Positions 6,395 to 32,390 of a stretch of DNA of 33,487 bases are shown here, one piece after another (within the stretch, counting starts at the first letter, position 1; each line of letters begins with the position of its first letter). Under the pieces are notes generated by a model that had not been told where the DNA came from, searched no databases, and was given only the letters and a program-made list of their open reading frames with translations. Source of the DNA: Candidatus Stahliibacteriota bacterium (lineage in GTDB: Bacteria > Hydrothermota > Tepidihabitantia > SM23-42); the NCBI GenBank assembly GCA_030613445.1, contig JAUWLY010000002.1, forward strand, positions 1 to 33,487. Reading direction: 5' to 3'. The translations under genes and the position numbers were made by a program.

Positions 6395-6668
6395 TTTGTC
6401 AAGGGTAAAGTGTAATGGCGAGGCGTAAACAATAAAAAAAACTACCTATTGAATGTTGATTTGCTAATGATAAACTTATTTACCACTGTGATGAAAATGG
6501 CAAGACGCGTCTGTAACGGAAAAGACAGTGGATTCGGTCCTGACCCCACCGCCATTTAAATGGGGAGAATGGAATAGGGTCATTGAAAAAAGGTTAACGC
6601 GCATCTTCGAGGGCCGAGATACGTATGGGTAAAATAAAGTCAGATGTACTGCTATCAAGGATGAAAAA
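6395..6668 (+). promoter_or_regulatory. Conserved promoter + ~190-nt 5' leader, copy 1 (paralogue at 17440-17718)
   Basis: An A8 tract is followed by TTGAAT (6449-6454), a 16-nt spacer and TAAACT (6471-6476). A leader follows containing the invariant 20-mer GTGGATTCGGTCCTGACCCC, and TGACCC...GGGTCA can pair. It aligns along most of its length with the region upstream of the second rSAM cassette. Confidence 0.6.
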
Positions 6669-6977
6669 ATGAAAAAGATGATAGGTGGATCAATCTTACT
6701 AATCCTATGTTTTGCAGTCAGTGGATGGGCTGAGGCACCAGCGCATTGGCATGGATATGTGAATTATGAAGGAGACCCAGTAGAGGGTGAATCTGTTTAT
6801 ACAGAACCAACAGATGGGCAAACATCCACGAACGCGGATAGCTTCTATGATTCATGCAACGCAAATGGAATGGGAAACAGGAAACACTATGACTATGTTC
6901 ACGCTAAAAAAACCATTGGTAATCGCTTGAAGGCAGAGGTCTATTACGCTAACGACTATTACTATGAAGTTTTTTAG
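6669..6977 (+). CDS. Small secreted protein (signal peptide, Tyr-rich C-terminus), translationally coupled to the radical-SAM gene
   Basis: N-terminus MKKMIGGSILLILCFAVSGWA-EAP looks like a Sec signal peptide. The mature part has a single Cys (FYDSCNANG) and ends YYANDYYYEVF. Its last 14 nt overlap the start of 6964-8328. No family recognised. Confidence 0.6.
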   Translation: MKKMIGGSILLILCFAVSGWAEAPAHWHGYVNYEGDPVEGESVYTEPTDGQTSTNADSFYDSCNANGMGNRKHYDYVHAKKTIGNRLKAEVYYANDYYYEVF

Positions 6978-8328
6978 GTCTGAGAATAATTACAAGCTCT
7001 CCTATTACAATTATTTGCACACAAAAGATAATATAACAATATTATACAACACCTATACAGGGGCTCAAGCAAATATCACAAAGTCAGATCGAGATTTCAT
7101 TTTGCATTTATTTGAAAACCTAAACAATTTTGAATTGCGTAATAAGAGGCCGGATATATTCGCAAAAATGATTCAATGTGGTTTTATAGTCAAAGAGGAT
7201 ATTCACGAGATTGACTTTATCCGATTTCGCTATTATAAAGGGGCATTTTCTGTAAAGAATTTGTCATTTACTCTGCTACCAACTCGAGCGTGTAATTTTC
7301 GATGTATATACTGTTTCGAAGATGAAATCAATGAATCAATGAATGCAGATGATTGCCATAATGTCCTAGCATTTGTGAAACGGCAGATAAAAGAACAAAT
7401 GCCACAAGCAGTTTCAATAAATTGGTATGGAGGAGAGCCTCTTCTTAAGTTTGAGATCATAAAAAATTTGAGTGAAGAATTCATAGAAATTTTTAAGACA
7501 GCTAAGATCGAATATCAAGGTGCCATCGTGACCAATGGTTATTTATTGGATGATAGTATTGCAAAACAACTATTGAAGTTGGGCATTAAGATAATCCAAA
7601 TTACGTTAGACGGACCAGAGGAAATTCATGATAAACGCAGGCCTTTAAGAAATGGTGGACCTACTTATGGTAAAGTGAAAGCTGGCATTATTTCTGCAAA
7701 AAAATATTTTGACAGTGTAGATATAAGAATCAATGTAGATCGTGACAATTTATGCTCAATTAGGGACTTCTTGGAAACAGAAGAATGGCTTTACGGTGAG
7801 AATACCACAGTAAGACCTGGAAGATTGAGAGACTATACTGATGTTTGTAGTGGGTTTTCGCCATGTGAAAAAGGATTTTCTGCTCCTGAATTCTACGACG
7901 TATACAAATTGATAAGAGGTCTTACTAAAACAAAAAGGTGTAAAGAGGATAGTGTATTTCCTGCTGTTGTTCCAGTCAGAAGTTTTTACTGTGGCGCCCA
8001 GGTTATAAATACCTATACAATAGGTCCGAGATGTTTTGTTTATAAATGCACTGCATCCCTTGATCATGGTGATGAAGTGGGCATTATAGAAAATGGAAAA
8101 TTCCAGCCGAATGAAAGATTTGTTGCGTGGTTTCTAAGAGAGCACCCGACTTATACAGAGCCGTGCAAATCATGTAAGATGTTGCCAATGTGCATGGGTG
8201 GATGTCGAGTAATTAGATTGAGAAGTTCAAATCATGAAGAATTAAAAAATGGTATTTGCCGTCATTTCTCTCTTCTGCTGAACACTTATTTAGAAAGCGA
8301 AGTAGAAAAATTAAAAAAAGCGATGTGA
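6964..8328 (+). CDS. Radical SAM / SPASM-domain enzyme (peptide-maturase-like, anSME/AslB superfamily)
   Basis: CxxxCxxC cluster motif RACNFRCIYC, GGEPLL motif, and C-terminal SPASM cysteines CGAQ...GPRCFVYKC and CKSCKMLPMCMGGC. Confidence 0.9.
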   Translation: MKFFRSENNYKLSYYNYLHTKDNITILYNTYTGAQANITKSDRDFILHLFENLNNFELRNKRPDIFAKMIQCGFIVKEDIHEIDFIRFRYYKGAFSVKNLSFTLLPTRACNFRCIYCFEDEINESMNADDCHNVLAFVKRQIKEQMPQAVSINWYGGEPLLKFEIIKNLSEEFIEIFKTAKIEYQGAIVTNGYLLDDSIAKQLLKLGIKIIQITLDGPEEIHDKRRPLRNGGPTYGKVKAGIISAKKYFDSVDIRINVDRDNLCSIRDFLETEEWLYGENTTVRPGRLRDYTDVCSGFSPCEKGFSAPEFYDVYKLIRGLTKTKRCKEDSVFPAVVPVRSFYCGAQVINTYTIGPRCFVYKCTASLDHGDEVGIIENGKFQPNERFVAWFLREHPTYTEPCKSCKMLPMCMGGCRVIRLRSSNHEELKNGICRHFSLLLNTYLESEVEKLKKAM

Positions 8329-8355
8329 AACTATTTACGAAAGGAGGTGATAATC

Positions 8356-8475
8356 ATGGATATTACAAAGCAACCACTAACCTGTTTAGAATGCAAAAAC
8401 CGGGAAACCGATGCTGAAATTGCTTTGGTTTGTCATTCTGGTTGTTGTGCCAGTAGTTGTTTTGCTATACTGTAA
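8356..8475 (+). CDS. 39-aa Cys-rich peptide, candidate RiPP precursor (not in ORF track)
   Basis: My translation is MDITKQPLTCLECKNRETDAEIALVCHSGCCASSCFAIL*. A near-perfect SD AAGGAGGTGA (8341-8350) lies 5 nt before the ATG, which is 27 nt after the rSAM stop. It has 7 Cys, five of them in the last 14 residues. Confidence 0.6.
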   Translation: MDITKQPLTCLECKNRETDAEIALVCHSGCCASSCFAIL

Positions 8476-17439: not shown

Positions 17440-17718
17440 TTTGTCAAGGGTAAAGTACAATGGAGTAGCGTAAACAATAAAAAAAACTATCTATTGACGG
17501 TTGACTTACTGAAGATAAACTTGTGTACGATTGTAATGAAAATAGCAAAATTCGCTATTACTGAAAAGCTTGTGGATTCGGTCCTGACCCCGCCTCCATC
17601 TTAGAATGGGGCAAGAGGAAAAGTGGGTCATAGCAAGTGGAGTAACCATCAATAAGGGGATCGAGATCTGGATGGTTATGTTGATTTATTTAATCATTAT
17701 ATCACAAAGGAGGTTATC
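17440..17718 (+). promoter_or_regulatory. Conserved promoter + ~190-nt 5' leader, copy 2 (paralogue of 6395-6668)
   Basis: An A8 tract is followed by TTGACG (17494-17499), a 16-nt spacer and TAAACT (17516-17521). The leader has the identical 20-mer GTGGATTCGGTCCTGACCCC and TGACCC...GGGTCA pairing. It ends at the AAGGAGG SD of the Cys-rich peptide gene. Confidence 0.6.
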
Positions 17719-17916
17719 ATGATTAATGCTAAAAACTGGGGTGGTGCCAGTGGCATTAATGAGACATGGAAATGTGGTTGTGCCTGCGTATGTAACTGTA
17801 TTTGCGGTTGTGGCATTGGGGATGATCTTGATGACTGCATCGCTGAGGCCTACCAGAATGACATTAATTCTGTAGCCAATGGTACGGCGTACGACGTAAG
17901 AATATCAATTCCATAA
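17719..17916 (+). CDS. 65-aa alternating-cysteine peptide, candidate RiPP precursor
   Basis: MINAKNWGGASGINETWKCGCACVCNCICGCGIGDDLDDCIAEAYQNDINSVANGTAYDVRISIP. AAGGAGG SD lies 6 nt upstream. Seven Cys occupy every second position (residues 19-31), with an eighth at residue 40. It lies directly upstream of a SPASM rSAM gene. Confidence 0.75.
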   Translation: MINAKNWGGASGINETWKCGCACVCNCICGCGIGDDLDDCIAEAYQNDINSVANGTAYDVRISIP

Positions 17917-17925
17917 TAGTATAAC

Positions 17926-17957
17926 GTGAGCTTGGAGGCTGCGGCTTCCAAGCTCAC
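17926..17957 (+). promoter_or_regulatory. Intercistronic stem-loop between peptide gene and radical-SAM gene
   Basis: GTGAGCTTGGA (17926-17936) pairs perfectly with TCCAAGCTCAC (17947-17957). The stem extends through further pairs to a TGCG tetraloop. No T-run follows; the SD for the next gene starts at 17972. Confidence 0.55.
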
Positions 17958-18111
17958 TAGCTCACTAAATTAAGGAGGTTTAATAAACGATTCTCCATTT
18001 ATACATAGATTTAAGAGTCTTTCTGGCAAATATTACATCTATGATGTTGGTACAAGCCGCGTTGTCTGTGTATCGAAAATCATTTATGATATCATAGATG
18101 ATTTTGGGCTA

Positions 18112-19461
18112 TTGTCACAATTTGATATAATATCAAAGTACATTAGTAAATATAATAGACAGCATATTATTAAGGCATTTGAAGAGATTAAACTACATAA
18201 ATCCAAAAGATTATTTTCCCCACCAAGACTTAGAAAAATGCATCGTCCATCATTGGATGAAGAAACTAAATTAAAATTATCCTCGCAGATAGGCCATTTG
18301 TGCCTGAATATCACAGACTCATGTAATTTACGATGTAAATATTGTGCGTTCAGTGGTACATACTATTTCGAAAGATTACACTCAAGCAAGTCGATGAGTA
18401 ACAAATTGATAAAAAAGACAGTAAATTATTATCTACGCCACGCTAGGGAGGCAGAAAATAAAGTAATTTCCATATACGGTGGCGAACCATTGACAGTATT
18501 CCAAAAAATTGTGTATTTAAGTGATGTTCTTTCGAACTCCAATCCAAATAGTGACTGCACAATCAGAATTGATACCAATGGTGTATTGCTCAGTGATCCA
18601 CATATCACCAACTATGTAATCAAAAATAATATCGATTTACAAATCAGTCTTGATGGTCCTAAAAGCACACAAGACAGATATCGTGTTGACAAAAATAACA
18701 AACCAACTTATGATAAGATAATATCGAACCTGTCCAATATCAAAAAAATAAACAGGCAATATTATGATGAACATGTTTCATTTTCTATTACACTTGCTCC
18801 GGATTATAATTTGTATGAAATCAACAATTTTTTTGAAACAAATAAACTCGTTAAAGGACATCATATGCTGTGCTCCAGTGTTAGAAGACACGATACTAAT
18901 TTCTTTGACAGATATACGCCAGATATTTATGAAAAAAAGCAAAAACAAATGCAAACATTGAAAGGAAACTACATTAATGCGCGAATAGCAGGAAAGGAGC
19001 CAACTGCATTTGAGAAAGCACTATTCGAAAAAAGTATAGTTTTACTACATGCAAGAAAACTAGACGAACCGTATGATAGTATTTCAATGAATGGATGCTG
19101 TTTTCCAGGACTGAGAAAAATTTACGTTAATACAAATGGCAATATTCATCCATGTGAAAAAGTTGGTAATGCATACAATATCGGAAGTCTTGACAAGGGA
19201 TTAGAGCTGAATAAAATAGCAGATATGCTAAAACAATACGTGAGTGCATCTGAAACTCACTGTATAAAATGCTGGGGTGCAAAGATATGCGGAATATGTT
19301 TTTCCCATGCTGTCAAAAATCATAAATTTGACTTTGAACGAAAAAAAGAGAATTGTCATATGATACTTTCCGCATCGCACAACGAGTTGGTAACTTATGC
19401 AACAATATTAGAAAGTAATCCCCAAGCTTTTGATTTTGTTAAAAACATGACTTTCAAATAA
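18112..19461 (+). CDS. Radical SAM / SPASM-domain peptide-maturase-like enzyme (true N-terminus probably ~43 codons upstream)
   Basis: DSCNLRCKYC (CxxxCxxC), YGGEPL, and SPASM cysteines NGCCFPG...IHPCEK...CIKCWGAKICGIC. The track start is TTG at 18112, but the frame is open back to 17974, just after the SD AAGGAGG (17972-17978). That extension encodes a typical maturase N-terminus, ...GKYYIYDVGTSRVVCVSKIIYDII. Confidence 0.9.
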   Translation: MSQFDIISKYISKYNRQHIIKAFEEIKLHKSKRLFSPPRLRKMHRPSLDEETKLKLSSQIGHLCLNITDSCNLRCKYCAFSGTYYFERLHSSKSMSNKLIKKTVNYYLRHAREAENKVISIYGGEPLTVFQKIVYLSDVLSNSNPNSDCTIRIDTNGVLLSDPHITNYVIKNNIDLQISLDGPKSTQDRYRVDKNNKPTYDKIISNLSNIKKINRQYYDEHVSFSITLAPDYNLYEINNFFETNKLVKGHHMLCSSVRRHDTNFFDRYTPDIYEKKQKQMQTLKGNYINARIAGKEPTAFEKALFEKSIVLLHARKLDEPYDSISMNGCCFPGLRKIYVNTNGNIHPCEKVGNAYNIGSLDKGLELNKIADMLKQYVSASETHCIKCWGAKICGICFSHAVKNHKFDFERKKENCHMILSASHNELVTYATILESNPQAFDFVKNMTFK

Positions 19462-21198
19462 ATGAAAGAATATATTAAATTGTATCTTCGGTTTATAGCA
19501 ATGAGTAGACCATGGTGGAAAAATGGCATTGGTGCAATTATTATTAGCCTTTCCGTTGTTATTTTTCAACTGCCGCTGCCATTGATCAGCAGATATGCAA
19601 TTGACAATATTTTTCCCCAAAAAGACATCTCAGCATTAAACTTAATTGCCTTAGGATTCTTATTCCTCACACTATCTAGTGCCGTAGGCAACTATCTAAG
19701 TAGTATGCTGCTTTTCTTGGTCAGGTCTAAGCTAACAATTTTTATTCAACATGAATTATTTCAACATATAGAACACCTAAGCATGACTTTTCATGAAAAT
19801 ACAAAGGTTGGATATTTAGCAGCCAGATTAAGTAGTGATGTTAGTCGTTTGCGGGGCTTGATGACTGATACATTACTTGGTTTTGTACGCAATTTATTGA
19901 TTTTCATTGGCGGAGTCACAGCATTGTTCTTTTTAAATTGGAAATTAGCCTTTTTAGCAATGATTATACTACCTTTTTTTGGGTATTCAATATATTTTTT
20001 TTCAAGCAAAATTCGATGGCTGGCAACTGATCTACAGGAAAAGACAGCTCAAGTTTTCAGTATCTTCAACGAAACTCTATATTCCATCACCACAGTAAAA
20101 ACATTTTGCATTGAAGATATACAAGCAAATAAAGCACTTGATAGGCTAAATTCTGCATTTAATGCTAACCTTAATCTTACAAAAACTTCCCGGCTTTCTG
20201 GTATGACGACATCTATATTGGGTTCCTTGGGTCCATTACTTATCCTTTGGTTTGGTGGAAGAGAAATAATGGCGGGTCATTTGACTCTTGGTGGTTTTGT
20301 TGCTTTTACTGGTTATCTGGGATACCTATATAGTCCAGTTCAATCACTGGTCAATTTAAATATGTCTTTACAAACTTCGCTTGCATCGCTGAAAAGAGTG
20401 TTTAATATATTCGATACTCCCAAAGAATCTAATAAGATAGTGAACAGCGAAGATAGCTATAATATAAGAGGGAAAATCGAATTTTCAGATGTCACGTTTT
20501 CATATAATGAAAATGAACCTGTATTGAAACATATATCATTTCTCATTAATCCAGGCGAAAGAATCGCTATTGTTGGTAGATCAGGTGCGGGGAAAAGTAC
20601 AATAGCAAGGTTGCTGATCAATTTTTACAAACCACAATCAGGAAATATTTTTATCGATAGCATAAACCTGAACGCAATCTCAACGGATTTCTTAAGAAAA
20701 AATATAGGAATTGTGTTACAAAACGCAACCATTTTATCGGGAACCATTTATGATAATGTAAAGGTTGGAAACATCGATGCAACCCATGATGAAGTAATTA
20801 ATGCATTAAAGATTGCAAATCTTTATGACTTTGTACTTTCTTTACCTAATGGACTTAAGACGGAAGTTAGCGAAAGAGGTACGCGGTTGTCTGGCGGTGA
20901 AAGACAGAGACTGGCAATTGCCAGAGTTATTTTAAAAAATCCTAAAATACTAATCTTTGACGAAGCAACTTCAGAGGTAGATTCTGAATCTGAGATACTC
21001 ATTCATGAAGCAATGGTGCATTTCTTAAAGAATAAAACATCTATTTTCATTGCTCATAGATTATTCAGTTTAATGCATGCTGATCGCATAATTTTTATTG
21101 AAAATGGTATTATCAAAGGATTTGGCGATCATAATAAATTGTATAATAGTGTAATGTCATATAAAAAACTCTATGATGAGCAATTTAGGGTTGCATAG
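19462..21198 (+). CDS. ABC transporter, fused permease/ATP-binding half-transporter (MsbA/exporter type, no peptidase domain)
   Basis: N-terminal 6-TM region, Walker A GRSGAGKST, signature LSGGERQR, Walker B ILIFDEATS and H-loop IAHR. The ATG starts the nucleotide after the rSAM stop codon. The N-terminus goes straight into TM1, so there is no C39 domain. Confidence 0.9.
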   Translation: MKEYIKLYLRFIAMSRPWWKNGIGAIIISLSVVIFQLPLPLISRYAIDNIFPQKDISALNLIALGFLFLTLSSAVGNYLSSMLLFLVRSKLTIFIQHELFQHIEHLSMTFHENTKVGYLAARLSSDVSRLRGLMTDTLLGFVRNLLIFIGGVTALFFLNWKLAFLAMIILPFFGYSIYFFSSKIRWLATDLQEKTAQVFSIFNETLYSITTVKTFCIEDIQANKALDRLNSAFNANLNLTKTSRLSGMTTSILGSLGPLLILWFGGREIMAGHLTLGGFVAFTGYLGYLYSPVQSLVNLNMSLQTSLASLKRVFNIFDTPKESNKIVNSEDSYNIRGKIEFSDVTFSYNENEPVLKHISFLINPGERIAIVGRSGAGKSTIARLLINFYKPQSGNIFIDSINLNAISTDFLRKNIGIVLQNATILSGTIYDNVKVGNIDATHDEVINALKIANLYDFVLSLPNGLKTEVSERGTRLSGGERQRLAIARVILKNPKILIFDEATSEVDSESEILIHEAMVHFLKNKTSIFIAHRLFSLMHADRIIFIENGIIKGFGDHNKLYNSVMSYKKLYDEQFRVA

Positions 21199-23425
21199 TA
21201 TAACTATATTATGCACTATTGTTTTGTCCTTAAATCCACTTTTTGGACAAGATTTCTTTTCTCCAGAAATATATGCAAATCGGATATCACAACCCATCTA
21301 TGTAGATGGTTCCTTGGATGATGAAGCTTGGAATGAAGCAAGCACTATCTCAGATGATTTTCATGACTACTGGATTGAATATGGAATCGTTGCGCCTGTA
21401 AAAACAACTATACTGGTTGGTTATGATGATGAGAATCTCTATTTTGGATTTATATGTCATGAAAAAGAAATGGATAAAGTACGTTCATTGATTCCAGCAT
21501 CCATTGAGAACTATGAAATTGTTGACGATGACCAGATAAGGATTCATCTCAATACCGATATTGAGAAGACCGAATCCTATGCTTTTTGGGTAAATCCTGA
21601 TGGATTCCAGGTGTGTTTTTATAACGTGGAAGAGAAACCAGGATTGTGGGGTTATGCTGAAATTATTGATCTTATCTGGTATGCAGCAGCAAAGAAACTG
21701 GATTCATGTTGGACTGTGGAGGTCAAGATACCTTTTCAGAGTCTTAGGTTTCCTTCAAATAAGATAGAGTATTGGAGAATAAATTTCACACGTAAATACC
21801 CACGGGAATATATGAACTTTTACAATTGGGCTCCTTTGGTCAAAGGCTATTCAGCTTATACTTTTTACGGGAAATTGCATATAAATGACAAGATCGTACA
21901 GCCAAAGAAAGTGGAGTTATTGCCTTACGTAACTGGTGGTGTTTATATTGATACAACCGGTTACTCAAACAAAGATTTTACAGGCAGAGCCGGCATAAGT
22001 GGAAAATATTATTTTGACTACAACAATATCATTGATTGGACTATTATCCCCGATTTTTCGCAGATTGAATCCGATGCGCCACAAATTGATTTGAATACGA
22101 CCTTTGCTTTTTACTATCCGGAAAAACGCCCTTTTTTTCTGGAACGCAAAGCCTTTTTTGAGACACCAATTTCGGTATTTTACAGCAGGGCTTTGAATGA
22201 TCTATTATGCGGACTAAAATATACAGGCAGCATGAAGTCCTTTAGTATTGGGTATGTAGGAGCTTATGATCGAAATACGCCATGGATTGTGCCATTTGCT
22301 GAACGGAGTGCAGTTATTGGAAGTGATAAAAAAAGTTTTTCCAATATCATACGAATAAAAAAAAGGTTATCGCCCGATTCTCATTTTGGCATAATATCAG
22401 TTAATCGTAATTTGTTTAATGGAGGTCATAATCACGTCGCAGGTCTGGATGGCAATGTAGTATTCTTAACAAGTAATGCAATAAGTTTTCAGGGACTGGT
22501 TTCTTTGACAAAGGAACCTGATGATACAACTTTACTTGGCAATATTTATGATCGTTATTTTGAGAACCATACGGGCGCTTTTGATGGCGAGCAATTTGGT
22601 GGTTCTGCCTTTGTGCTCCAAGCGTCTCACAAGAGCAAAATTCTGCACTTGAATGCATATTATAAAGGATTATCGTCAGATTTTCGTTCTGATAATGGAT
22701 TCATTTATTATAACGACTGTGAGGAACGTTATATTAGCATGGGGTTAACTGCGCCATTACGGAGATATCTTATCGAATCAATAATTCTTAGTTTAGAGGC
22801 TGGAGAAAAAAGGCGATATTTTGGTGAACATATCGGCTTTGAACGTTCCGCGGCTATATCTATTAACCTCAAAAATCAAATAGCCACTCAGTTTTCCTAT
22901 TCTTTAAATGACCGGATCTATGAGATGGTTGATTTTCATAATATTTGGACAGGTGCAGTAAGTTTGTCTATAACTTCAATAAAGAACATCAATTTAGGTA
23001 TGTCAATTAATTATGGGCGTCAAGTTAGTTTTCTTGCTGATCCTTATGTTCTTGGTTACAAGTTTGCACCATTTGTCTGGAGCAGATTCTATTATGGCAG
23101 ATTATCACTGAAATGTACCTATCATCAATATATATTATGGATAAGTGATTATAATAATCAGGAATTAAATACATCAGCAATAGATTTAACATGCGCTTTC
23201 CGTTTTGCTAAAAACATATATATGCGAACCTTACTGCAGTACAATTCTACATCAAATACATGCTGCTTTTATCCATTGTTCTCTTATGAAGCTACACCTT
23301 TCACAACATTCTATCTGGGAGTGAATCAGACCCTTGAAAACAGCAATGATCTAAAAGACTTGCAAAACTATAAAAATATAAGTACGAAGATCTTCCTGAA
23401 ATTACAACATGAATTTAGACCTTGA
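21173..23425 (+). CDS. Secreted CBM9-like + DUF5916-type envelope protein
   Basis: Signal peptide ...LSLNPLFGQ. N-terminal pattern IYVDGSLDDEAWNEAS...DENLYFGF...WTVEVKIPFQSLRF is typical of family-9-like carbohydrate-binding modules that precede DUF5916. It is followed by ~500 aa rich in alternating aromatic/polar beta-strand-like segments ending ...KLQHEFRP. Overlaps the ABC gene by 26 nt. Confidence 0.7.
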   Translation: MMSNLGLHSITILCTIVLSLNPLFGQDFFSPEIYANRISQPIYVDGSLDDEAWNEASTISDDFHDYWIEYGIVAPVKTTILVGYDDENLYFGFICHEKEMDKVRSLIPASIENYEIVDDDQIRIHLNTDIEKTESYAFWVNPDGFQVCFYNVEEKPGLWGYAEIIDLIWYAAAKKLDSCWTVEVKIPFQSLRFPSNKIEYWRINFTRKYPREYMNFYNWAPLVKGYSAYTFYGKLHINDKIVQPKKVELLPYVTGGVYIDTTGYSNKDFTGRAGISGKYYFDYNNIIDWTIIPDFSQIESDAPQIDLNTTFAFYYPEKRPFFLERKAFFETPISVFYSRALNDLLCGLKYTGSMKSFSIGYVGAYDRNTPWIVPFAERSAVIGSDKKSFSNIIRIKKRLSPDSHFGIISVNRNLFNGGHNHVAGLDGNVVFLTSNAISFQGLVSLTKEPDDTTLLGNIYDRYFENHTGAFDGEQFGGSAFVLQASHKSKILHLNAYYKGLSSDFRSDNGFIYYNDCEERYISMGLTAPLRRYLIESIILSLEAGEKRRYFGEHIGFERSAAISINLKNQIATQFSYSLNDRIYEMVDFHNIWTGAVSLSITSIKNINLGMSINYGRQVSFLADPYVLGYKFAPFVWSRFYYGRLSLKCTYHQYILWISDYNNQELNTSAIDLTCAFRFAKNIYMRTLLQYNSTSNTCCFYPLFSYEATPFTTFYLGVNQTLENSNDLKDLQNYKNISTKIFLKLQHEFRP

Positions 23426-24197
23426 TATTTTGCGTCCACATTGCTGGTGCAAAACTAACATAGCTATATTGGCAAAATTACTATCACTATTGATTGTTCA
23501 AAGTTTCATTTATGCGCAAATTTATAAGGCACCTGAAATAAGGCCGGCAAGATTTCACGAAAGCATTACAATAAATGGCATTTTTGATGAAACCTCCTGG
23601 CAATCTGCAACAGTGATCGACAGTTTTTATGAAATTAATCCTGGCAATATGTGTAATCCTTCGGTAAGAACACTAGTATTATTAGGCTATGATAACAAGA
23701 TGTTATACGTTGGCTTTACCTGCTATGAAGATACTATTTCCAAAATAAAGGCTACAACAATTAAAAATAATAGAACCGAAAGAATTCTTGGCGGCACAAA
23801 TGATCTTGTTAAAATCTACATAAAACCTCGTATTAATATTAATGAAAGTTATATTCTTTATGTTAATCCTCTTGGTATCCAATACACACACTACTACAAG
23901 AAAGAGTGGCTTGAAGTGTATAAAATTAAATTAGGTTGGCACGCTGCGGTAAACATCACTGATTCATGCTGGACTGTGGAAATTGCGATTCCTTTCAAAA
24001 ATTTGCATTTATATAAATCGATTCATCAAGAGTGGCAAATCGATTTCTGGCGTATTCGTCCGCGTGAGTTCTTGTATAAGTATAGTTGTTCACCTCATCC
24101 CAATGGTGAATTTTCCATATATAGCTTCATGGGTCATATGACTATTGACGAAAAAATATATAGTTCTAAGTTATTTGGCTCCTCTTGCCTATGGTAA
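23409..24197 (+). CDS. Secreted CBM9-like domain protein (stand-alone)
   Basis: Signal peptide ...LLIVQSFIYAQ. ITINGIFDETSWQSATVIDSF...NKMLYVGF...WTVEIAIPFKNLH parallels the N-terminal module of the upstream gene. Overlaps that gene by 17 nt. Confidence 0.65.
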   Translation: MNLDLDILRPHCWCKTNIAILAKLLSLLIVQSFIYAQIYKAPEIRPARFHESITINGIFDETSWQSATVIDSFYEINPGNMCNPSVRTLVLLGYDNKMLYVGFTCYEDTISKIKATTIKNNRTERILGGTNDLVKIYIKPRININESYILYVNPLGIQYTHYYKKEWLEVYKIKLGWHAAVNITDSCWTVEIAIPFKNLHLYKSIHQEWQIDFWRIRPREFLYKYSCSPHPNGEFSIYSFMGHMTIDEKIYSSKLFGSSCLW

Positions 24198-24289
24198 AAA
24201 CTGATATTGATATCATAAAATTATAGATATGATTGGTCAAATCATAGAGGACTGTAATATAATACGTGGCTGCATCAAAAGATAATATT

Positions 24290-25501
24290 ATGACAATGCT
24301 ATTCATTCAATCCCGGCTCATGATAATTGTGGTTCTCTGTATGGCGGTTGCAGGATGCCCGGGACGTCATACCTCGTCAGGAAATCCATCGTGGACACAA
24401 CTCTACCCGTTGAGCACCAAAGAACTTGCGGAACAGGAATATGCCATTGGTTTCGAATTTATGCTGGAAAACCGATATGACAACGCTATCCGTCATTTTG
24501 AAGAAGCAGTAAGATTAGACAGCGCACAACTTAAATCCTATTGGGCTCTGGCGACCATCTATACTGAGCTGAATGATAATGAAAAAGCACTGTCATTATA
24601 TAAGCAGTTGTGTAATTCAAATCCATCAAACCCACAGATCTATGTAGCATTAGGCGCTTATTATGCTCAAATCGAGGATTATAATGCAGCAGTAAATACT
24701 TATAAGAAGGGATTGACCATTGATTCTACAGACCTAGATTTATTGAATGGTTTAGCTTTGATGCATGCCTGCCTCCGGAATTTTGAGCAGTCATTGGTCA
24801 TATTTGGCAAAGTACTTGCACATGATTCGACCAACGTAATTGCTTTAAGAAACGCCGGGCGCATTAACTATGTTCGGCATCAGCCTGAAAAGGCACTTCA
24901 ATACTATAAACGGCTTCTTATTAATCCATTGGGAGTTTCAAGCATTGTGGTGAGTGAATATGCTGACGTTCTAATAGCTTTGCGATGCTATGAGGAAGCA
25001 TTAATGATATATGATTCCTTGCTGGTTTTCGAACCAGAAAATGTAAATCTTCTCATTATATCTGGATTGACCTTGCAAAAGCAAAAACAATATACAGAAG
25101 CTGTTAAAAGATTTGAAATTGCGAATCAATTTGAACCTGAGAATACGCAACCTTTGTTATATATAGCAGAAATTGATCTTGAACAAGGGAATTTAATAAA
25201 CGCAAAAGGTCGCCTTGATCGTGTAGTAGATATTGATCCAGACAATACAAAAGCTCATATGATGCTCGGTGATTTGTATTTTAATTGGGCAAAAGCGGCA
25301 GAAGGTGAATGGTATCAGAATCGTGTAAAGGAAAACTGTAGCACATTGTTCAAAGCGTTGGATAACCTAATGCAGGCAATTCAATATTATCAAAAAGCAC
25401 GTAACGAGGAAAATCTACGCAAATATTCTAATAATCAAATTGAGCGCTGTCAGGCAATTAAGCGCGCGCTTGAAGAAGACAAGTGGTTTTACTGTAAATA
25501 A
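24290..25501 (+). CDS. TPR-repeat lipoprotein
   Basis: I prefer the ATG at 24290 (MTMLFIQSRLMIIVVLCMAVAGC, lipobox VAGC) to the GTG at 24266. It has multiple 34-aa TPR units (e.g. YWALATIYTELNDNEKALSLYKQLCNSNPSN, IYVALGAYYAQIEDYNAAVNTYKKGLTIDSTD). Confidence 0.8.
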   Translation: MTMLFIQSRLMIIVVLCMAVAGCPGRHTSSGNPSWTQLYPLSTKELAEQEYAIGFEFMLENRYDNAIRHFEEAVRLDSAQLKSYWALATIYTELNDNEKALSLYKQLCNSNPSNPQIYVALGAYYAQIEDYNAAVNTYKKGLTIDSTDLDLLNGLALMHACLRNFEQSLVIFGKVLAHDSTNVIALRNAGRINYVRHQPEKALQYYKRLLINPLGVSSIVVSEYADVLIALRCYEEALMIYDSLLVFEPENVNLLIISGLTLQKQKQYTEAVKRFEIANQFEPENTQPLLYIAEIDLEQGNLINAKGRLDRVVDIDPDNTKAHMMLGDLYFNWAKAAEGEWYQNRVKENCSTLFKALDNLMQAIQYYQKARNEENLRKYSNNQIERCQAIKRALEEDKWFYCK

Positions 25502-25635
25502 TGTGACTTAGCAAATATCATAGAAATGAAGAAATGGATTTATTTCGGAAGTTTGCTCTATACAAACTCACTTTGCATTATTCTTCTACTACACAATTTA
25601 TGGATTTGAACTATCTAAAATTTAAAGGAGATGAA

Positions 25636-25863
25636 ATGATATGTGATTACATACATAAATTACTATATACCTTTGGTAGTAGTTATGTAGCTAAACATAA
25701 AAGTAAATATATCGCGAAACATATGAAAACTTGTGGCTTCTGCAAAAAAGAACTAAACAATATGCAAAAACTACAGAGGCTATTGGACTCGGTGGAGACC
25801 ACGTGCGCACCCTTGAATTTTAGCATCCGAGTAATTGAGATTATTTGTGGAATAAAACAATAA
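25636..25863 (+). CDS. Small zf-HC2-like (anti-sigma-factor N-terminal type) protein
   Basis: AAGGAG lies 5 nt before the ATG at 25636. The product MICDYIHKLL...KHMKTCGFCKKELNNMQKL contains H-x3-C-x2-C, the putative zinc-finger motif of anti-sigma factors. No TM segment and no sigma factor gene are nearby, so the call is weak. Confidence 0.4.
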   Translation: MICDYIHKLLYTFGSSYVAKHKSKYIAKHMKTCGFCKKELNNMQKLQRLLDSVETTCAPLNFSIRVIEIICGIKQ

Positions 25864-32057: not shown

Positions 32058-32390
32058 CTAAATTTCCTCTTTATCAATTATAGGTATTCTATTATTTCTG
32101 TCAATTAATTCCTGAACCGCTCTAATGTCAGCTCCAGCCATCACTAATTTCGAAGCAAATGTGTGGCGCAGGTCGTGAAATCTGAAATTCCCAATCCCAG
32201 CACGCTTTAATGCCCCTTTGAATGGACTTTTGATATCACTGTATGGACTGCTGTCTTCATGGGAAAATACATATTGGGGGTTCATTTGCTGACCCAATGA
32301 ACTAAGTTCATTATATAGCATAGCATTTATCGGTAGTATTCTTGTTTCATTATTCTTCGTTTGTCTAATAGTAATAATCTGATTTCTCAT
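32058..32390 (-). pseudogene. Tyrosine recombinase internal fragment (truncated at both ends)
   Basis: ...TKNNETRILPINAMLYNEL...FKGALKRAGIGNFRFHDLRHTFASKLVMAGADIRAVQELI covers the catalytic-domain core (R, HxLRH). It diverges after QEL, so the terminal H..Y tyrosine box is lost, and the N-terminal core-binding domain is absent. Confidence 0.75.

What the first reader, a model, noticed from the sequence alone, without database searches (positions are those of the whole stretch)
17719..25863. Alternating-cysteine (C-X)7 peptide + SPASM radical-SAM + peptidase-less ABC exporter + CBM9/DUF5916 pair in one tightly coupled operon
Seen: a 65-aa ORF with a canonical AAGGAGG SD has the core WK-CGCACVCNCICGCG-IGDDLDDC. 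Seven Cys sit at every second position (nt 17773-17811), followed by an acidic stretch and an eighth Cys. This core lies mid-peptide, with a ~25-aa follower. Downstream come a stable hairpin, a CxxxCxxC/SPASM rSAM gene and an ABC half-transporter whose ATG begins the nucleotide after the rSAM stop. Two secreted CBM9-like proteins follow, overlapping their upstream genes by 26 and 17 nt. Established: SPASM rSAM enzymes next to short Cys-rich ORFs are the hallmark of thioether-crosslinked RiPPs (sactipeptides, ranthipeptides/SCIFF). Inference: I do not recognise a strict C-X-C-X repeat as any named precursor class. The exporter lacks a C39 peptidase, and a DUF5916 envelope protein is not a usual RiPP partner. 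This may therefore be an undescribed peptide modification and export system. A metallothionein-like metal-binding role is an alternative.
Basis: partly seen in the sequence, partly recalled or inferred. Interest (0 to 1): 0.85.

Follow-up and report, generated by a model that had tools for sequence, protein, structure and literature searches.

The report
Alternating-cysteine peptide, radical-SAM and outer-membrane barrel operon
This is a real, conserved but rare gene cluster of uncultivated WOR-3-like bacteria: a tiny peptide with cysteine at every second position sits next to a radical-SAM enzyme that most likely cross-links it, plus an exporter and a large outer-membrane barrel of unknown function, making it an unnamed relative of a poorly studied bacteriocin family.

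Summary
The 65-aa ORF (17719-17916) carries seven Cys at alternate positions. Shuffles never give a run above 4.

About 25 short peptides from relatives share its plan: leader M-x-x-x-x-x-W-G-G-G, a (C-X)4-8 core and a variable tail. A profile search of 1.84 billion proteins found only 14.

The enzyme next door has the RRE + radical-SAM + 7-Cys SPASM layout of CteB. Its best named match is CcpM (TIGR04068), at 262 bits against a cutoff of 500. The peptide does not match the CcpM partner family TIGR04065. It is therefore a sister clade, not a member.

The radical-SAM gene starts at ATA 17983; relatives have ATG there.

DUF5916 is a confidently modelled outer-membrane barrel of about 24-26 strands with a CBM9-like N-domain. 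It follows the enzyme in 10 independent lineages, with or without the ABC exporter.

The precursor gene is hypervariable: 71% nt identity to a close relative, against 95-97% for flanking genes. A hairpin follows the precursor in 12 of 13 loci examined.

Best reading: a new CcpM-like, multiply thioether-cross-linked secreted peptide. The chemistry and the DUF5916 role are inferred, not shown.

Also found: a second SPASM cluster, and a shared structured leader RNA with no Rfam match.

The parts
17494..17690 (+). Candidate promoter plus about 190-nt 5' leader with a structured core at 17565-17675. A second copy lies at 6452-6640, upstream of the window's other rSAM cluster.
   Evidence: The two window copies are 75-80% identical, and the 20-nt core occurs exactly twice against 0 expected. 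Copies also lie upstream of related clusters in L001, L167 and L005. Of the structure's cells, 93% are paired against 31-62% in slid controls, and 5 pairs change on both sides. There is no Rfam match. A promoter-like TTGACG-16-TAAACT lies at 17494-17521.
17707..17713 (+). Shine-Dalgarno AAGGAGG of the precursor gene
   Evidence: Read directly from the sequence.
17719..17916 (+). Precursor peptide gene (65 aa). Leader is aa 1-18 (MINAKNWGG...), the (C-X)7 core is aa 19-31 (nt 17773-17811), and the acidic variable follower with an eighth Cys is aa 32-65.
   Evidence: See for the ORF and chance test. The same plan is conserved in about 25 peptides. Against L001 the core has dN 0.066, while the follower has dN 0.685 above dS 0.34.
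17926..17957 (+). Stable intergenic hairpin (14-bp stem, 4-nt loop, no U-tract) between the precursor and enzyme genes
   Evidence: The 86-nt stretch 17905-17990 containing it folds at -31.6 kcal/mol, z -5.4. A GC-rich hairpin sits in the same position in 12 of 13 clade loci, with unrelated sequences. In relatives it overlaps the 3' end of a 42-aa ORF that is deleted in the window.
17983..19461 (+). Radical-SAM/SPASM peptide maturase (492 aa) with an N-terminal RRE-like domain. It starts at ATA.
   Evidence: Best match is TIGR04068 CcpM: 261.9 bits, cutoff 500, covering full length from residue 7 of the extended ORF. The relative has ATG at the same position. It aligns with CteB (5wgg), E 1e-26, including residues 5-100. 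Invariant residues are C114/C118/C121 plus seven SPASM Cys.
19462..21198 (+). ABC half-transporter (transmembrane plus nucleotide-binding domains, 578 aa) without a peptidase domain
   Evidence: Pfam finds ABC_membrane at 25-293 and ABC_tran at 355-504 only. It aligns to PCAT1 from PCAT1 residue 158 onward, after the C39 domain. An ABC gene is present in 8 of the clade lineages.
21173..23425 (+). DUF5916 protein (750 aa): signal peptide, CBM9-like beta-sandwich (about 32-237) and an outer-membrane beta-barrel of about 24-26 strands (246-745)
   Evidence: PF19313 scores 40.1 bits (cutoff 22.6) and CBM9_1 is borderline. The AF2 model has pLDDT 89.9 and pTM 0.88. Foldseek matches LptD, MtrB and TonB-dependent receptors at TM 0.3-0.4; the N-domain matches 4jpq at TMt 0.70. 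It lies downstream of the rSAM in 10 lineages.
23409..24197 (+). Secreted 262-aa paralogue of the DUF5916 N-terminal CBM9-like domain, found only in the window and L001-L003 lineage
   Evidence: BLASTP against DUF5916 residues 13-245 gives 32% identity, E 3e-37. No separate copy was seen in more distant loci.
24266..25501 (+). TPR lipoprotein. It is an adjacent gene shared only with the closest relatives and is not part of the conserved module.
   Evidence: Many TPR families match. It is present in L001-L003 but absent after DUF5916 in L004, L165, L171 and L174.

Best explanation
This is a RiPP biosynthesis and export operon of a previously unnamed sister clade of the CcpM 'Cys-rich peptide' radical-SAM systems.

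**Proposed steps**
1. The precursor is transcribed from a long structured leader.
2. A hairpin directly after the precursor gene lets the small transcript outnumber the enzyme message.
3. The precursor's short N-terminal beta-strand-like leader (M-phi-x-phi-phi-x-W-G-G-G) docks on the enzyme's RRE domain.
4. The SPASM radical-SAM enzyme then turns the alternating cysteines, which all face one side of an extended strand, into a ladder of up to 7-8 thioether (sactionine or ranthionine type) cross-links.
5. The peptidase-less ABC half-transporter moves the product across the inner membrane.
6. The DUF5916 barrel, with its CBM9-like domain, handles it at the outer membrane, either letting it out or holding it at the surface.

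**Status of each part**
- Shown: the anatomy, its conservation, the homology and the fast evolution of the precursor.
- Inferred: the thioether chemistry, the direction of transport and the DUF5916 role.
For: **Precursor**
- The (CX)n precursor sits next to the enzyme in about 15 independent lineages, at 28-89% enzyme identity.
- The family is rare and coherent. A profile search of 1.84e9 proteins returned 14 hits, all 51-76 aa and all with the same plan. A search of 5.8e9 proteins returned only 10.

**Enzyme**
- It has the CteB layout: RRE, CxxxCxxC and a 7-Cys SPASM domain.
- Its top named matches are thioether-forming or Cys-rich-peptide maturases: CcpM, RumMC, SCIFF, PapB and QhpD.
- The six residues equivalent to CteB's active-site-proximal set read x-Y-[D/T]-S-E-[K/R] across the clade and in a bona fide CcpM.

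**Precedent**
- StsA (CxCxCx4GxGxG) is converted into three hairpin sactionines from alternating Cys (PMC10288494).
- A CcpM-family product, SacP23, is antimicrobial (PMC10731318).

**Operon logic**
- A hairpin follows the precursor in 12 of 13 loci.
- Genes overlap by 8-32 nt between ABC and DUF5916, or between rSAM and DUF5916, in several lineages.
- DUF5916 is linked in 10 lineages.

**Evolution**
- The precursor is 70.7% nt identical to L001, against 95-96.6% for neighbouring genes.
- Its dN/dS is about 1.6. The Cys core is under purifying selection and the follower is diversifying. This pattern is expected for a secreted antagonistic or signalling peptide.

**Cell envelope**
- T9SS-sorting (type IX secretion) domains in the window indicate a diderm host, so an outer-membrane step is needed.
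Against: - No chemistry has been determined, either for this clade or for CcpM itself.
- The follower shows no conserved acceptor residues across the family, so the cross-link partners cannot be predicted.
- No leader protease and no membrane-fusion or TolC-type partner is encoded.
- Three lineages have DUF5916 but no ABC gene (L004, L005, L165). DUF5916 is therefore not simply the exporter's outer-membrane partner.
- The DUF5916 structural matches are generic large barrels (TM 0.3-0.4).
- DUF5916 proteins at about 31-33% identity occur without any rSAM neighbour.
- In this window the enzyme gene starts with ATA. A 42-aa ORF and a 122-aa ORF present in the closest relative are missing. This copy might therefore be weakly expressed.
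Confidence: 0.6

Rival explanations
1. Envelope subunit or cofactor model, by analogy with QhpC. The cross-linked peptide is not a free natural product. After export it becomes a tightly bound partner or plug of the DUF5916 barrel and its CBM9-like domains. The precedent is the QhpD-cross-linked gamma subunit of quinohaemoprotein amine dehydrogenase, which crosses the membrane by an ABC transporter and assembles in the periplasm (the QhpC biology is recalled from memory and was not re-checked here).
For: - DUF5916 follows the rSAM even where no ABC gene is present (L004, L005, L165).
- The genes are translationally coupled.
- No leader protease is encoded.
- The barrel is of the LptD/MtrB size class, which houses a partner in its lumen.
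- The enzyme has a weak match to QhpD (TIGR03906, E 6e-31).
Against: - The follower region is hypervariable with dN above dS, and repeat number varies from 4 to 8 between relatives. Both are unexpected for a fixed structural subunit.
- DUF5916 proteins are widespread without the peptide.
- Two lineages (L167, L172) have peptide and enzyme but no DUF5916.
Confidence: 0.15
2. Metal-binding peptide, metallothionein-like or metallophore-like. The C-X-C run chelates Cu(I), Zn or Cd. The enzyme tailors the peptide without consuming all thiols. DUF5916 acts as the outer-membrane gate for the peptide-metal complex.
For: - CxCxCxC motifs appear in the literature only in metal-binding proteins.
- The two distant DUF5916 genes examined lie beside metal-homeostasis genes: a DtxR-type repressor with Nramp in one case, and CzcB/CusB-type RND efflux in the other.
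Against: - Apart from one contig that starts inside the enzyme gene (L010), every family member recovered with genomic context sits next to an RRE-bearing SPASM maturase whose named relatives consume Cys thiols.
- No metallothionein family matches the peptide.
- DUF5916 has no TonB-receptor plug domain.
- A fast-evolving follower is not typical of metallophores.
- The metal-gene neighbourhood rests on only two loci.
Confidence: 0.1
3. The family is real, but this window's copy is decaying or silent. The enzyme has lost its ATG (now ATA), and two small ORFs found in the closest relative are deleted.
For: - ATA replaces ATG at 17983.
- The 42-aa ORF is reduced to its terminal hairpin.
- The 122-aa ORF of L001 is absent.
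- The rSAM dN/dS against L001 is 0.82, higher than ABC (0.54) and CBM9 (0.38).
Against: - All four large ORFs are intact over about 6.2 kb, with every catalytic Cys present.
- The SD and its spacing are preserved.
- Substitutions in the rSAM are spread evenly rather than clustered.
- The ATA could be a sequencing or population variant, or a weak start.
Confidence: 0.12

Closest known systems
CcpM / CLI_3235 'Cys-rich peptide' system of Firmicutes (NCBIfam TIGR04068 maturase plus TIGR04065 precursor; example SacP23 of Paenibacillus polymyxa)
   Same: - It is the best full-length match of the enzyme (E 1e-77).
- It has the same RRE + rSAM + SPASM layout.
- It shares the pattern at the six active-site-proximal positions, x-Y-[D/T]-S-E-[K/R], with Asp in the window and Thr in CcpM at the third position.
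- Its precursors are short, start with a brief leader and carry C-x-C-x-C stretches.
- An ABC exporter lies nearby.
   Different: - The enzyme scores 262 bits against a cutoff of 500, with about 27% identity to a true CcpM.
- The precursor does not match TIGR04065; the leader is MxxxxNWGGG rather than MKKLGKK...AY.
- The Cys repeat is strictly alternating and longer (4-8 Cys).
- The TIGR04066 and TIGR04069 partners and the subtilase are absent.
- The hosts are diderm candidate phyla.
- A DUF5916 outer-membrane barrel is part of the module.
CteB/SCIFF, and the sactipeptide and ranthipeptide maturases generally (RumMC, PapB, QhpD)
   Same: - CteB is the closest solved structure (5wgg, E 1e-26), including the RRE region.
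- The radical-SAM motif CxxxCxxC and the 7-Cys SPASM domain are present.
- The substrate is Cys-rich.
   Different: - The enzyme falls below every family cutoff.
- The active-site-proximal residues differ: A-Y-D-S-E-K here against F-F-T-S-H-Q in CteB (PMC10288494).
- The precursor has no SCIFF, CX3D or other known motif.
StsA/StsB sactipeptide of Streptomyces sparsogenes (CxCxCx4GxGxG core)
   Same: Alternating Cys donors are cross-linked into a beta-hairpin ladder of sactionines (PMC10288494). This is the best mechanistic precedent for a C-X-C-X donor strand.
   Different: - StsB is MftC-like, with a separate RRE protein.
- StsA has only three Cys and a matching GxGxG acceptor strand.
- No such conserved acceptor strand exists in this family.
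Other Cys-periodic RiPP classes named in NCBIfam: the CXXX-repeat target family (TIGR04115) and Cys-every-fifth CefA/CefB (NF038107)
   Same: The precursor is defined by Cys at a fixed period, next to a SPASM maturase.
   Different: - The period is 2 rather than 4 or 5.
- The enzyme matches those models only weakly (66 and 72 bits).
- The window's other rSAM (6964-8328) is the one that resembles CefB and Clo7bot.
DUF5916 (PF19313) / CBM9-like proteins of the FCB group and allied phyla
   Same: The window protein passes the PF19313 cutoff and aligns end to end with hundreds of members.
   Different: - No function is published for the family.
- The rSAM-linked members form the top-scoring subset, at 36% identity or more.
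- Members at 31-33% identity are not rSAM-linked.

Membership tests
CcpM system (TIGR04068/TIGR04065) | Enzyme scores at or above the TIGR04068 curated cutoff (500 bits) | tested here: not met
   261.9 bits, E 1.1e-77, full-length alignment.
CcpM system (TIGR04068/TIGR04065) | Precursor matches TIGR04065 (CLI_3235 family, cutoff 26 bits) | tested here: not met
   No hit even at E<=10 for the window peptide and four clade relatives. Three Firmicutes precursors from fetched loci scored 30.5-53.3 bits as positive controls.
CcpM system (TIGR04068/TIGR04065) | Accessory genes TIGR04066, TIGR04069 and a subtilase are in the cluster (as listed in PMC4573289 and PMC10731318) | tested here: not met
   None of the seven operon proteins hits these models.
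CcpM system (TIGR04068/TIGR04065) | Shared active-site-proximal residue pattern with bona fide CcpM | tested here: met
   The window reads A-Y-D-S-E-K, CcpM P0120 reads V-Y-T-S-E-R, and the pattern x-Y-[D/T]-S-E-[K/R] holds in nearly all of the 115 homologues aligned.
RRE-dependent SPASM peptide maturase (CteB-type sacti/ranthisynthase architecture) | CxxxCxxC radical-SAM cluster motif | tested here: met
   C114, C118 and C121 are invariant in 29 sequences. Pfam Radical_SAM scores 55.3 bits.
RRE-dependent SPASM peptide maturase (CteB-type sacti/ranthisynthase architecture) | C-terminal SPASM domain with seven Cys for two auxiliary clusters | tested here: met
   C373, C391, C427, C430, C436, C439 and C458 are invariant, including G-x4-C and CX2CX5CX2C. 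The region aligns with the CteB SPASM domain.
RRE-dependent SPASM peptide maturase (CteB-type sacti/ranthisynthase architecture) | N-terminal RiPP recognition element | tested here: met
   Residues 5-100 align with the CteB N-terminal domain. This is a sequence-level test only.
RRE-dependent SPASM peptide maturase (CteB-type sacti/ranthisynthase architecture) | Forms Cys-S to carbon thioether links in the precursor | not testable with these tools
   Needs co-expression and MS/MS.
Peptidase-containing ABC transporter (PCAT) | N-terminal C39 peptidase domain | tested here: not met
   Only ABC_membrane and ABC_tran are found. The alignment to PCAT1 starts at PCAT1 residue 158.
DUF5916 (PF19313) | Scores above the Pfam gathering cutoff (22.6 bits) | tested here: met
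   40.1 bits, E 2.7e-10. There are 537 homologues at E<=1e-10.
CBM9_1 (PF06452) | Scores above the gathering cutoff (23.4 bits) | tested here: inconclusive
   DUF5916 as a whole protein scores 21.2 bits. Its N-domain alone scores 24.4 bits. The 262-aa protein scores only 12.1 bits, E 0.18, and its assignment rests on paralogy.
TonB-dependent receptor | N-terminal plug domain and a 22-strand barrel | tested here: not met
   No Plug or TonB_dep_Rec Pfam hit. Structural similarity is generic only (TM about 0.3-0.37).
Metallothionein | Match to a metallothionein family; a stand-alone cytoplasmic Cys-rich protein | tested here: not met
   No Pfam or NCBIfam hit. Apart from one contig that starts inside the enzyme gene (L010), family members recovered with genomic context lie next to an rSAM maturase.
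QhpD/QhpC quinohaemoprotein amine dehydrogenase maturation | Enzyme at or above the TIGR03906 cutoff (453 bits) | tested here: not met
   107.7 bits. No QhpA or QhpB-like genes are in the window.

The most novel reading that the evidence does not exclude
The (C-X)n peptide, its CcpM-like enzyme and DUF5916 form a dedicated two-membrane system. A peptide stapled by a ladder of up to eight thioethers would be a new RiPP chemotype. It would be delivered to, through or into a large LptD-sized outer-membrane barrel. This would give the first function for the widespread DUF5916 family and reveal a RiPP secretion or display route that needs no TolC or membrane-fusion partner. The whole system may be switched by a previously undescribed structured leader RNA shared with a second radical-SAM cluster.
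Probability: 0.3. Interest if true: 0.8.

Novelty: new variant of a known kind. Interest (0 to 1): 0.6.

Why it matters
- Radical-SAM-modified peptides are a main source of new peptide chemistry and antibiotics, yet almost all studied examples come from Firmicutes and Actinobacteria.
- This cluster defines a small, coherent family in uncultivated diderm phyla (WOR-3, Krumholzibacteriia and others). Its precursor is unusually regular, so cross-link topology should be easy to map by mass spectrometry.
- Solving it would probably also reveal what the named but chemically unsolved CcpM family does.
- The recurrent coupling to DUF5916 gives a testable first hypothesis for a large outer-membrane protein family with no known function.
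- The shared leader RNA is a candidate new regulatory element.

Tried and rejected
**Searches that returned nothing**
- Pfam and NCBIfam scans of the peptide, even at E<=10: no hit.
- Rfam at gathering score over the window, and at E<=1 over the leader: no hit.
- Literature searches for DUF5916, ranthipeptide with WOR-3, CcpM, CLI_3235, TIGR04068 and CxCxCxC. These gave no description of this family, only annotation-level mentions of CcpM plus metal-binding proteins.
- The paper I recalled as defining the TIGRFAM models (Haft and Basu 2011) could not be retrieved.
- The supplements of PMC10288494 are not held.

**Ideas considered and rejected**
- The hairpin as an intrinsic terminator. It has no U-tract and was not flagged by the scan.
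- A sigma-54 promoter in the leader. This was prompted by sigma-54 activators near L167, L170 and L174. The spacing is off by one and the site is not conserved in the second copy; this was judged by eye only.
- The WGGG in the leader as a double-glycine cleavage site. It lies only 9-10 residues from the N-terminus and no C39 peptidase is present, so the question is unresolved.
- The TPR lipoprotein and the 109-aa ORF as system parts. They are not conserved beyond the closest relatives.

**Limits of what was obtained**
- The Foldseek search of the DUF5916 model returned only generic large barrels, so no specific function could be transferred.
A systematic neighbourhood survey of DUF5916 was therefore not possible.

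Full report
**1. Observation**

The ORF at 17719-17916 (+) encodes MINAKNWGGASGINETWKCGCACVCNCICGCGIGDDLDDCIAEAYQNDINSVANGTAYDVRISIP. An AAGGAGG lies 5 nt before its ATG. Seven Cys occupy every second codon at 17773-17811.

In 200 shuffles of the window, read in six frames, the longest alternating-Cys run was 4. The expected number of seven-Cys runs is 3e-6.

The hairpin at 17926-17957 has a 14-bp stem. The 86-nt stretch 17905-17990 containing it folds at -31.6 kcal/mol, z = -5.4. It has no U-tract and is not called a terminator.

The ABC ATG (19462) follows the rSAM stop. DUF5916 overlaps the ABC gene by 26 nt. The 262-aa gene overlaps DUF5916 by 17 nt.

**2. Correction to the enzyme gene**

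The first canonical start (TTG 18112) would remove the N-terminal domain. The NCBIfam match to CcpM already begins at residue 7 of the frame opened at 17980.

The 89%-identical relative has AAGGAGGCTTA-ATG where the window has AAGGAGGTTTA-ATA. The gene therefore runs 17983-19461 with an ATA start. This is either a weak start, a variant or an error.

The relative also carries a 42-aa ORF between precursor and enzyme: MNNPLGLSKTQLNDIFRDVNNLYRDNVEEVISELGGCGLQAH. In the window only its last ~30 nt survive, and they form the hairpin.

**3. What the proteins are**

*Enzyme.*
- It has CxxxCxxC (C114/C118/C121) and seven invariant SPASM cysteines.
- It aligns with the SCIFF thioether maturase CteB (5wgg, E 1e-26), including CteB's N-terminal peptide-recognition region.
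- Every NCBIfam match is below its cutoff: CcpM 262 of 500 bits, RumMC 235 of 720, lachnocin 180, the CFB 'GG' maturase 154, SCIFF 125, PapB 121 and QhpD 108.

*ABC protein.* It is an ordinary Sav1866/MsbA/PCAT-type exporter core without a C39 domain.

*DUF5916 protein.*
- It passes PF19313.
- With 71 homologues it gave a confident model, pLDDT 89.9 and pTM 0.88. The model shows a signal helix, a beta-sandwich (about 32-237) and about 24-26 long strands (246-745).
- Foldseek finds only large outer-membrane barrels (LptD, MtrB, TonB-dependent receptors, TM 0.3-0.4). For the N-domain it finds a Bacteroides 'putative carbohydrate-binding protein', 4jpq (TMt 0.70).

*262-aa protein.* It is a secreted paralogue of that N-domain (32% identity, E 3e-37).

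*Host.* T9SS sorting domains elsewhere in the window show a diderm, FCB-like host. The nearest named relatives are WOR-3 MAGs.

**4. Conservation**

The table lists contigs carrying enzyme homologues, with the precursor core found directly upstream on the same strand and the genes downstream.

| Locus | Enzyme identity | Precursor Cys core | Downstream genes |
|---|---|---|---|
| L001-3 | 89% | CACTCVCNCICGC | ABC, DUF5916 |
| L004 | 51% | CGCVCTCGCVCSC | DUF5916, no ABC |
| L005 (WOR-3) | 50% | CHCGCICMCDCWCSC | DUF5916, no ABC |
| L165 | 49% | CRCYCVCICDCWCSC | DUF5916, no ABC |
| L006 | 45% | CACACGCWCDC | ABC, DUF5916 |
| L167 | 45% | CECGCCCIC | neither |
| L170 | 41% | CTCNCTC | ABC, then contig ends |
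| L168/9 | 40% | CSCGCACTCTC | ABC, DUF5916 |
| L171 | 38% | CSCGCSCSCSC | ABC, DUF5916 |
| L174 | not measured (found via its DUF5916) | CNCGCSCQCAC | ABC, DUF5916 |
| L172 | 37% | CSCGCFCCCIC | neither |
| L007 (Krumholzibacteriia) | 35% | CVCQSMCLCSC | ABC, then contig ends |
| L008 | 34% | CSCTCWCHC | contig ends |
| L010 (WOR-3) | 30% | off contig | ABC, DUF5916 |
| L087 | 28% | CSCSCVCNC | contig ends |

- DUF5916 lies downstream of the enzyme in ten independent lineages, counting the window. Three of these have no ABC gene.
That is inference only.
- DUF5916 homologues at 31-33% identity are not next to an rSAM.

**5. The precursor family**

An alignment shows three parts:
- a conserved leader, M-phi-x-phi-phi-x-W-G-G-G, with an alternating hydrophobic pattern;
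- the Cys repeat, often C-x-C-G-C, with 4-8 Cys;
- a variable tail, which is either acidic and polar (the window's subgroup) or Gly/Ala-rich and ending in Pro-rich residues.

A word-indexed search of 5.8e9 proteins found 10 members. A profile search of 1.84e9 representatives found 14 at E<=1e-3, all 51-76 aa with this plan and all unnamed. Close relatives differ in repeat number (P0243 against P0245).

**6. Evolution**

Against L001, the rSAM, ABC, DUF5916 and CBM9-like genes are 95.1-96.6% identical in DNA, and the leader is 90% identical. The precursor ORF is only 70.7% identical.

| Region | dN | dS | dN/dS |
|---|---|---|---|
| Whole precursor | 0.41 | 0.26 | about 1.6 |
| Cys core | 0.066 | 0.34 | |
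| Follower | 0.685 | 0.34 | |
| Neighbouring genes | | | 0.38-0.82 |

The raised dS also allows replacement of the cassette by recombination. Either way, the precursor is a hypervariable cassette inside a conserved operon, as expected for a secreted antagonistic or signalling peptide.

**7. Hairpin**

A GC-rich perfect hairpin (10-17 bp) follows the precursor stop in 12 of 13 clade loci. The sequences are unrelated. This is a conserved position rather than a conserved sequence, and it fits the usual device that lets precursor mRNA exceed enzyme mRNA. That role is inference from known RiPP operons.

**8. Relation to known systems**

Firmicutes loci fetched in the same scans carry true CcpM enzymes next to peptides such as:
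- MKKLGKKMHEMKETIEAYNCIMICECSSCSCTCNP...
- MRKLGKTNQVSNESVEAFFCFCVVCACNCRCGY...

These hit TIGR04065 (30-53 bits). The window-clade peptides do not. The CcpM accessory genes (TIGR04066, TIGR04069, subtilase; PMC4573289, PMC10731318) are absent.

The positions equivalent to CteB's six active-site-proximal residues (defined in PMC10288494) read A-Y-D-S-E-K in the window. The pattern x-Y-[D/T]-S-E-[K/R] holds across the clade and in a bona fide CcpM (V-Y-T-S-E-R). The clade therefore probably performs CcpM's reaction.

That reaction is unsolved. SacP23, a CLI_3235 member, is antimicrobial, and its linkages 'remain to be elucidated' (PMC10731318).

The best mechanistic precedent for alternating donors is StsA. 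Its CxCxCx4GxGxG core becomes three hairpin sactionines (PMC10288494).

**9. Mechanism and rivals**

The best-supported reading is a multiply thioether-cross-linked secreted peptide. It would be exported by the ABC protein and handled at the outer membrane by DUF5916. I put the RiPP assignment at about 0.85, thioether chemistry at about 0.55, and an outer-membrane export or display role for DUF5916 at about 0.35.

Rivals:
- a QhpC-like bound subunit of the DUF5916/CBM9 complex;
- a metal-binding peptide, for which the only positive hints are CxC chemistry and metal genes next to two unlinked DUF5916 genes;
- decay of this particular copy (ATA start, deletions).

**10. Other things in the window**

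- A second SPASM maturase (6964-8328) resembles Clo7bot and CefB. It follows a 102-aa secreted protein gene and precedes a Cys-rich 42-aa ORF.
- Both rSAM clusters are preceded by the same leader of about 190 nt, at 17497-17690 and 6452-6640.
- The ~110-nt core of that leader recurs in L001 (twice), in L167 and, with an insertion, directly upstream of the (CX)8 precursor in WOR-3 contig L005.
- The proposed three-helix fold is 93% paired, against 31-62% in slid controls, and five pairs change on both sides. No Rfam family matches. With seven sequences and a model-fitted alignment, this is a lead and not a result.

**11. Verdict**

The finding is real and non-trivial. It is an undescribed, rare clade of a known kind of system (radical-SAM maturation of a Cys-rich peptide). 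It has a strikingly regular precursor and a new, conserved outer-membrane partner. It is not categorically new. The chemistry and the DUF5916 role remain to be shown.

Noticed in passing
window 6669-8475: A second, different SPASM radical-SAM peptide-maturase cluster. A 102-aa secreted protein gene (6669-6977) overlaps an rSAM gene (6964-8328). The enzyme's best NCBIfam matches are Clo7bot (244 bits) and Cys-every-fifth CefB (224 bits), both below cutoff. A Cys-rich 42-aa ORF follows at 8347-8475 (VIIMDITKQPLTCLECKNRETDAEIALVCHSGCCASSCFAIL). GWxTD, TPR and TssQ-like genes lie downstream.
   Followed up: partly
window 17497-17690 and 6452-6640; L001 9351-9540 and 3610-3802; L167 5664-5775; L005 54-210: A shared leader element of about 190 nt lies upstream of both rSAM clusters in the window and upstream of related clusters elsewhere. 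In L001 a further copy lies upstream of an operon encoding a 116-aa ORF and an LVIVD-repeat protein. The conserved core reads YCGGTCCT-GACCC-hairpin-GGGTC-...-GGGGAYCGR. The three-helix fold has compensatory changes (93% paired, against 31-62% in slid controls). No Rfam match. It is a candidate new cis-regulatory RNA.
   Followed up: partly
window 17983-17985: The radical-SAM gene begins with ATA where its 89%-identical relative has ATG, behind an identical SD and spacing. The first canonical start (TTG 18112) would delete the peptide-recognition domain.
   Followed up: yes
L001 9858-9986 (deleted in window; remnant = hairpin 17926-17957): The closest relatives carry a 42-aa ORF with a strong SD between precursor and enzyme. 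Its product ends ...VISELGG-CGLQAH, which resembles a double-glycine leader followed by a 6-residue core. It may be a second small precursor, or not a gene at all. It is absent from more distant loci.
   Followed up: partly
L168 610-6419 and 8001-13810: The whole cassette (precursor, rSAM, ABC, DUF5916) appears twice in tandem on one metagenomic contig. This is either a real duplication or an assembly artefact.
   Followed up: no
L174 3493-4964: In this relative the rSAM gene is split into 322-aa and 112-aa ORFs in different frames. This is either a frameshift or an assembly error. The (CX)6 precursor, ABC and DUF5916 genes are intact.
   Followed up: partly
L175 6125-9340 and L176 1-9268: Two DUF5916 genes not linked to an rSAM lie beside metal-homeostasis genes. 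One is next to a divergent DtxR/MntR-type repressor with an Nramp transporter. The other is next to a CzcB/CusB-type RND efflux system. With only two loci, this could be chance.
   Followed up: no
window 32058-32390 (-); L001 2092-3392 and 18230-19614: A truncated tyrosine-recombinase fragment lies near the window's end. In the relative, an IS (rve transposase) and an integrase/excisionase pair flank the region. Gene order around the operon also differs between the window and L001: the LVIVD gene is downstream in one and upstream in the other. The neighbourhood is rearranged and possibly mobile.
   Followed up: no
L167, L170, L174: Sigma-54 enhancer-binding activator genes lie next to three of the related clusters. 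No convincing sigma-54 promoter was seen in the window's leader.
   Followed up: no
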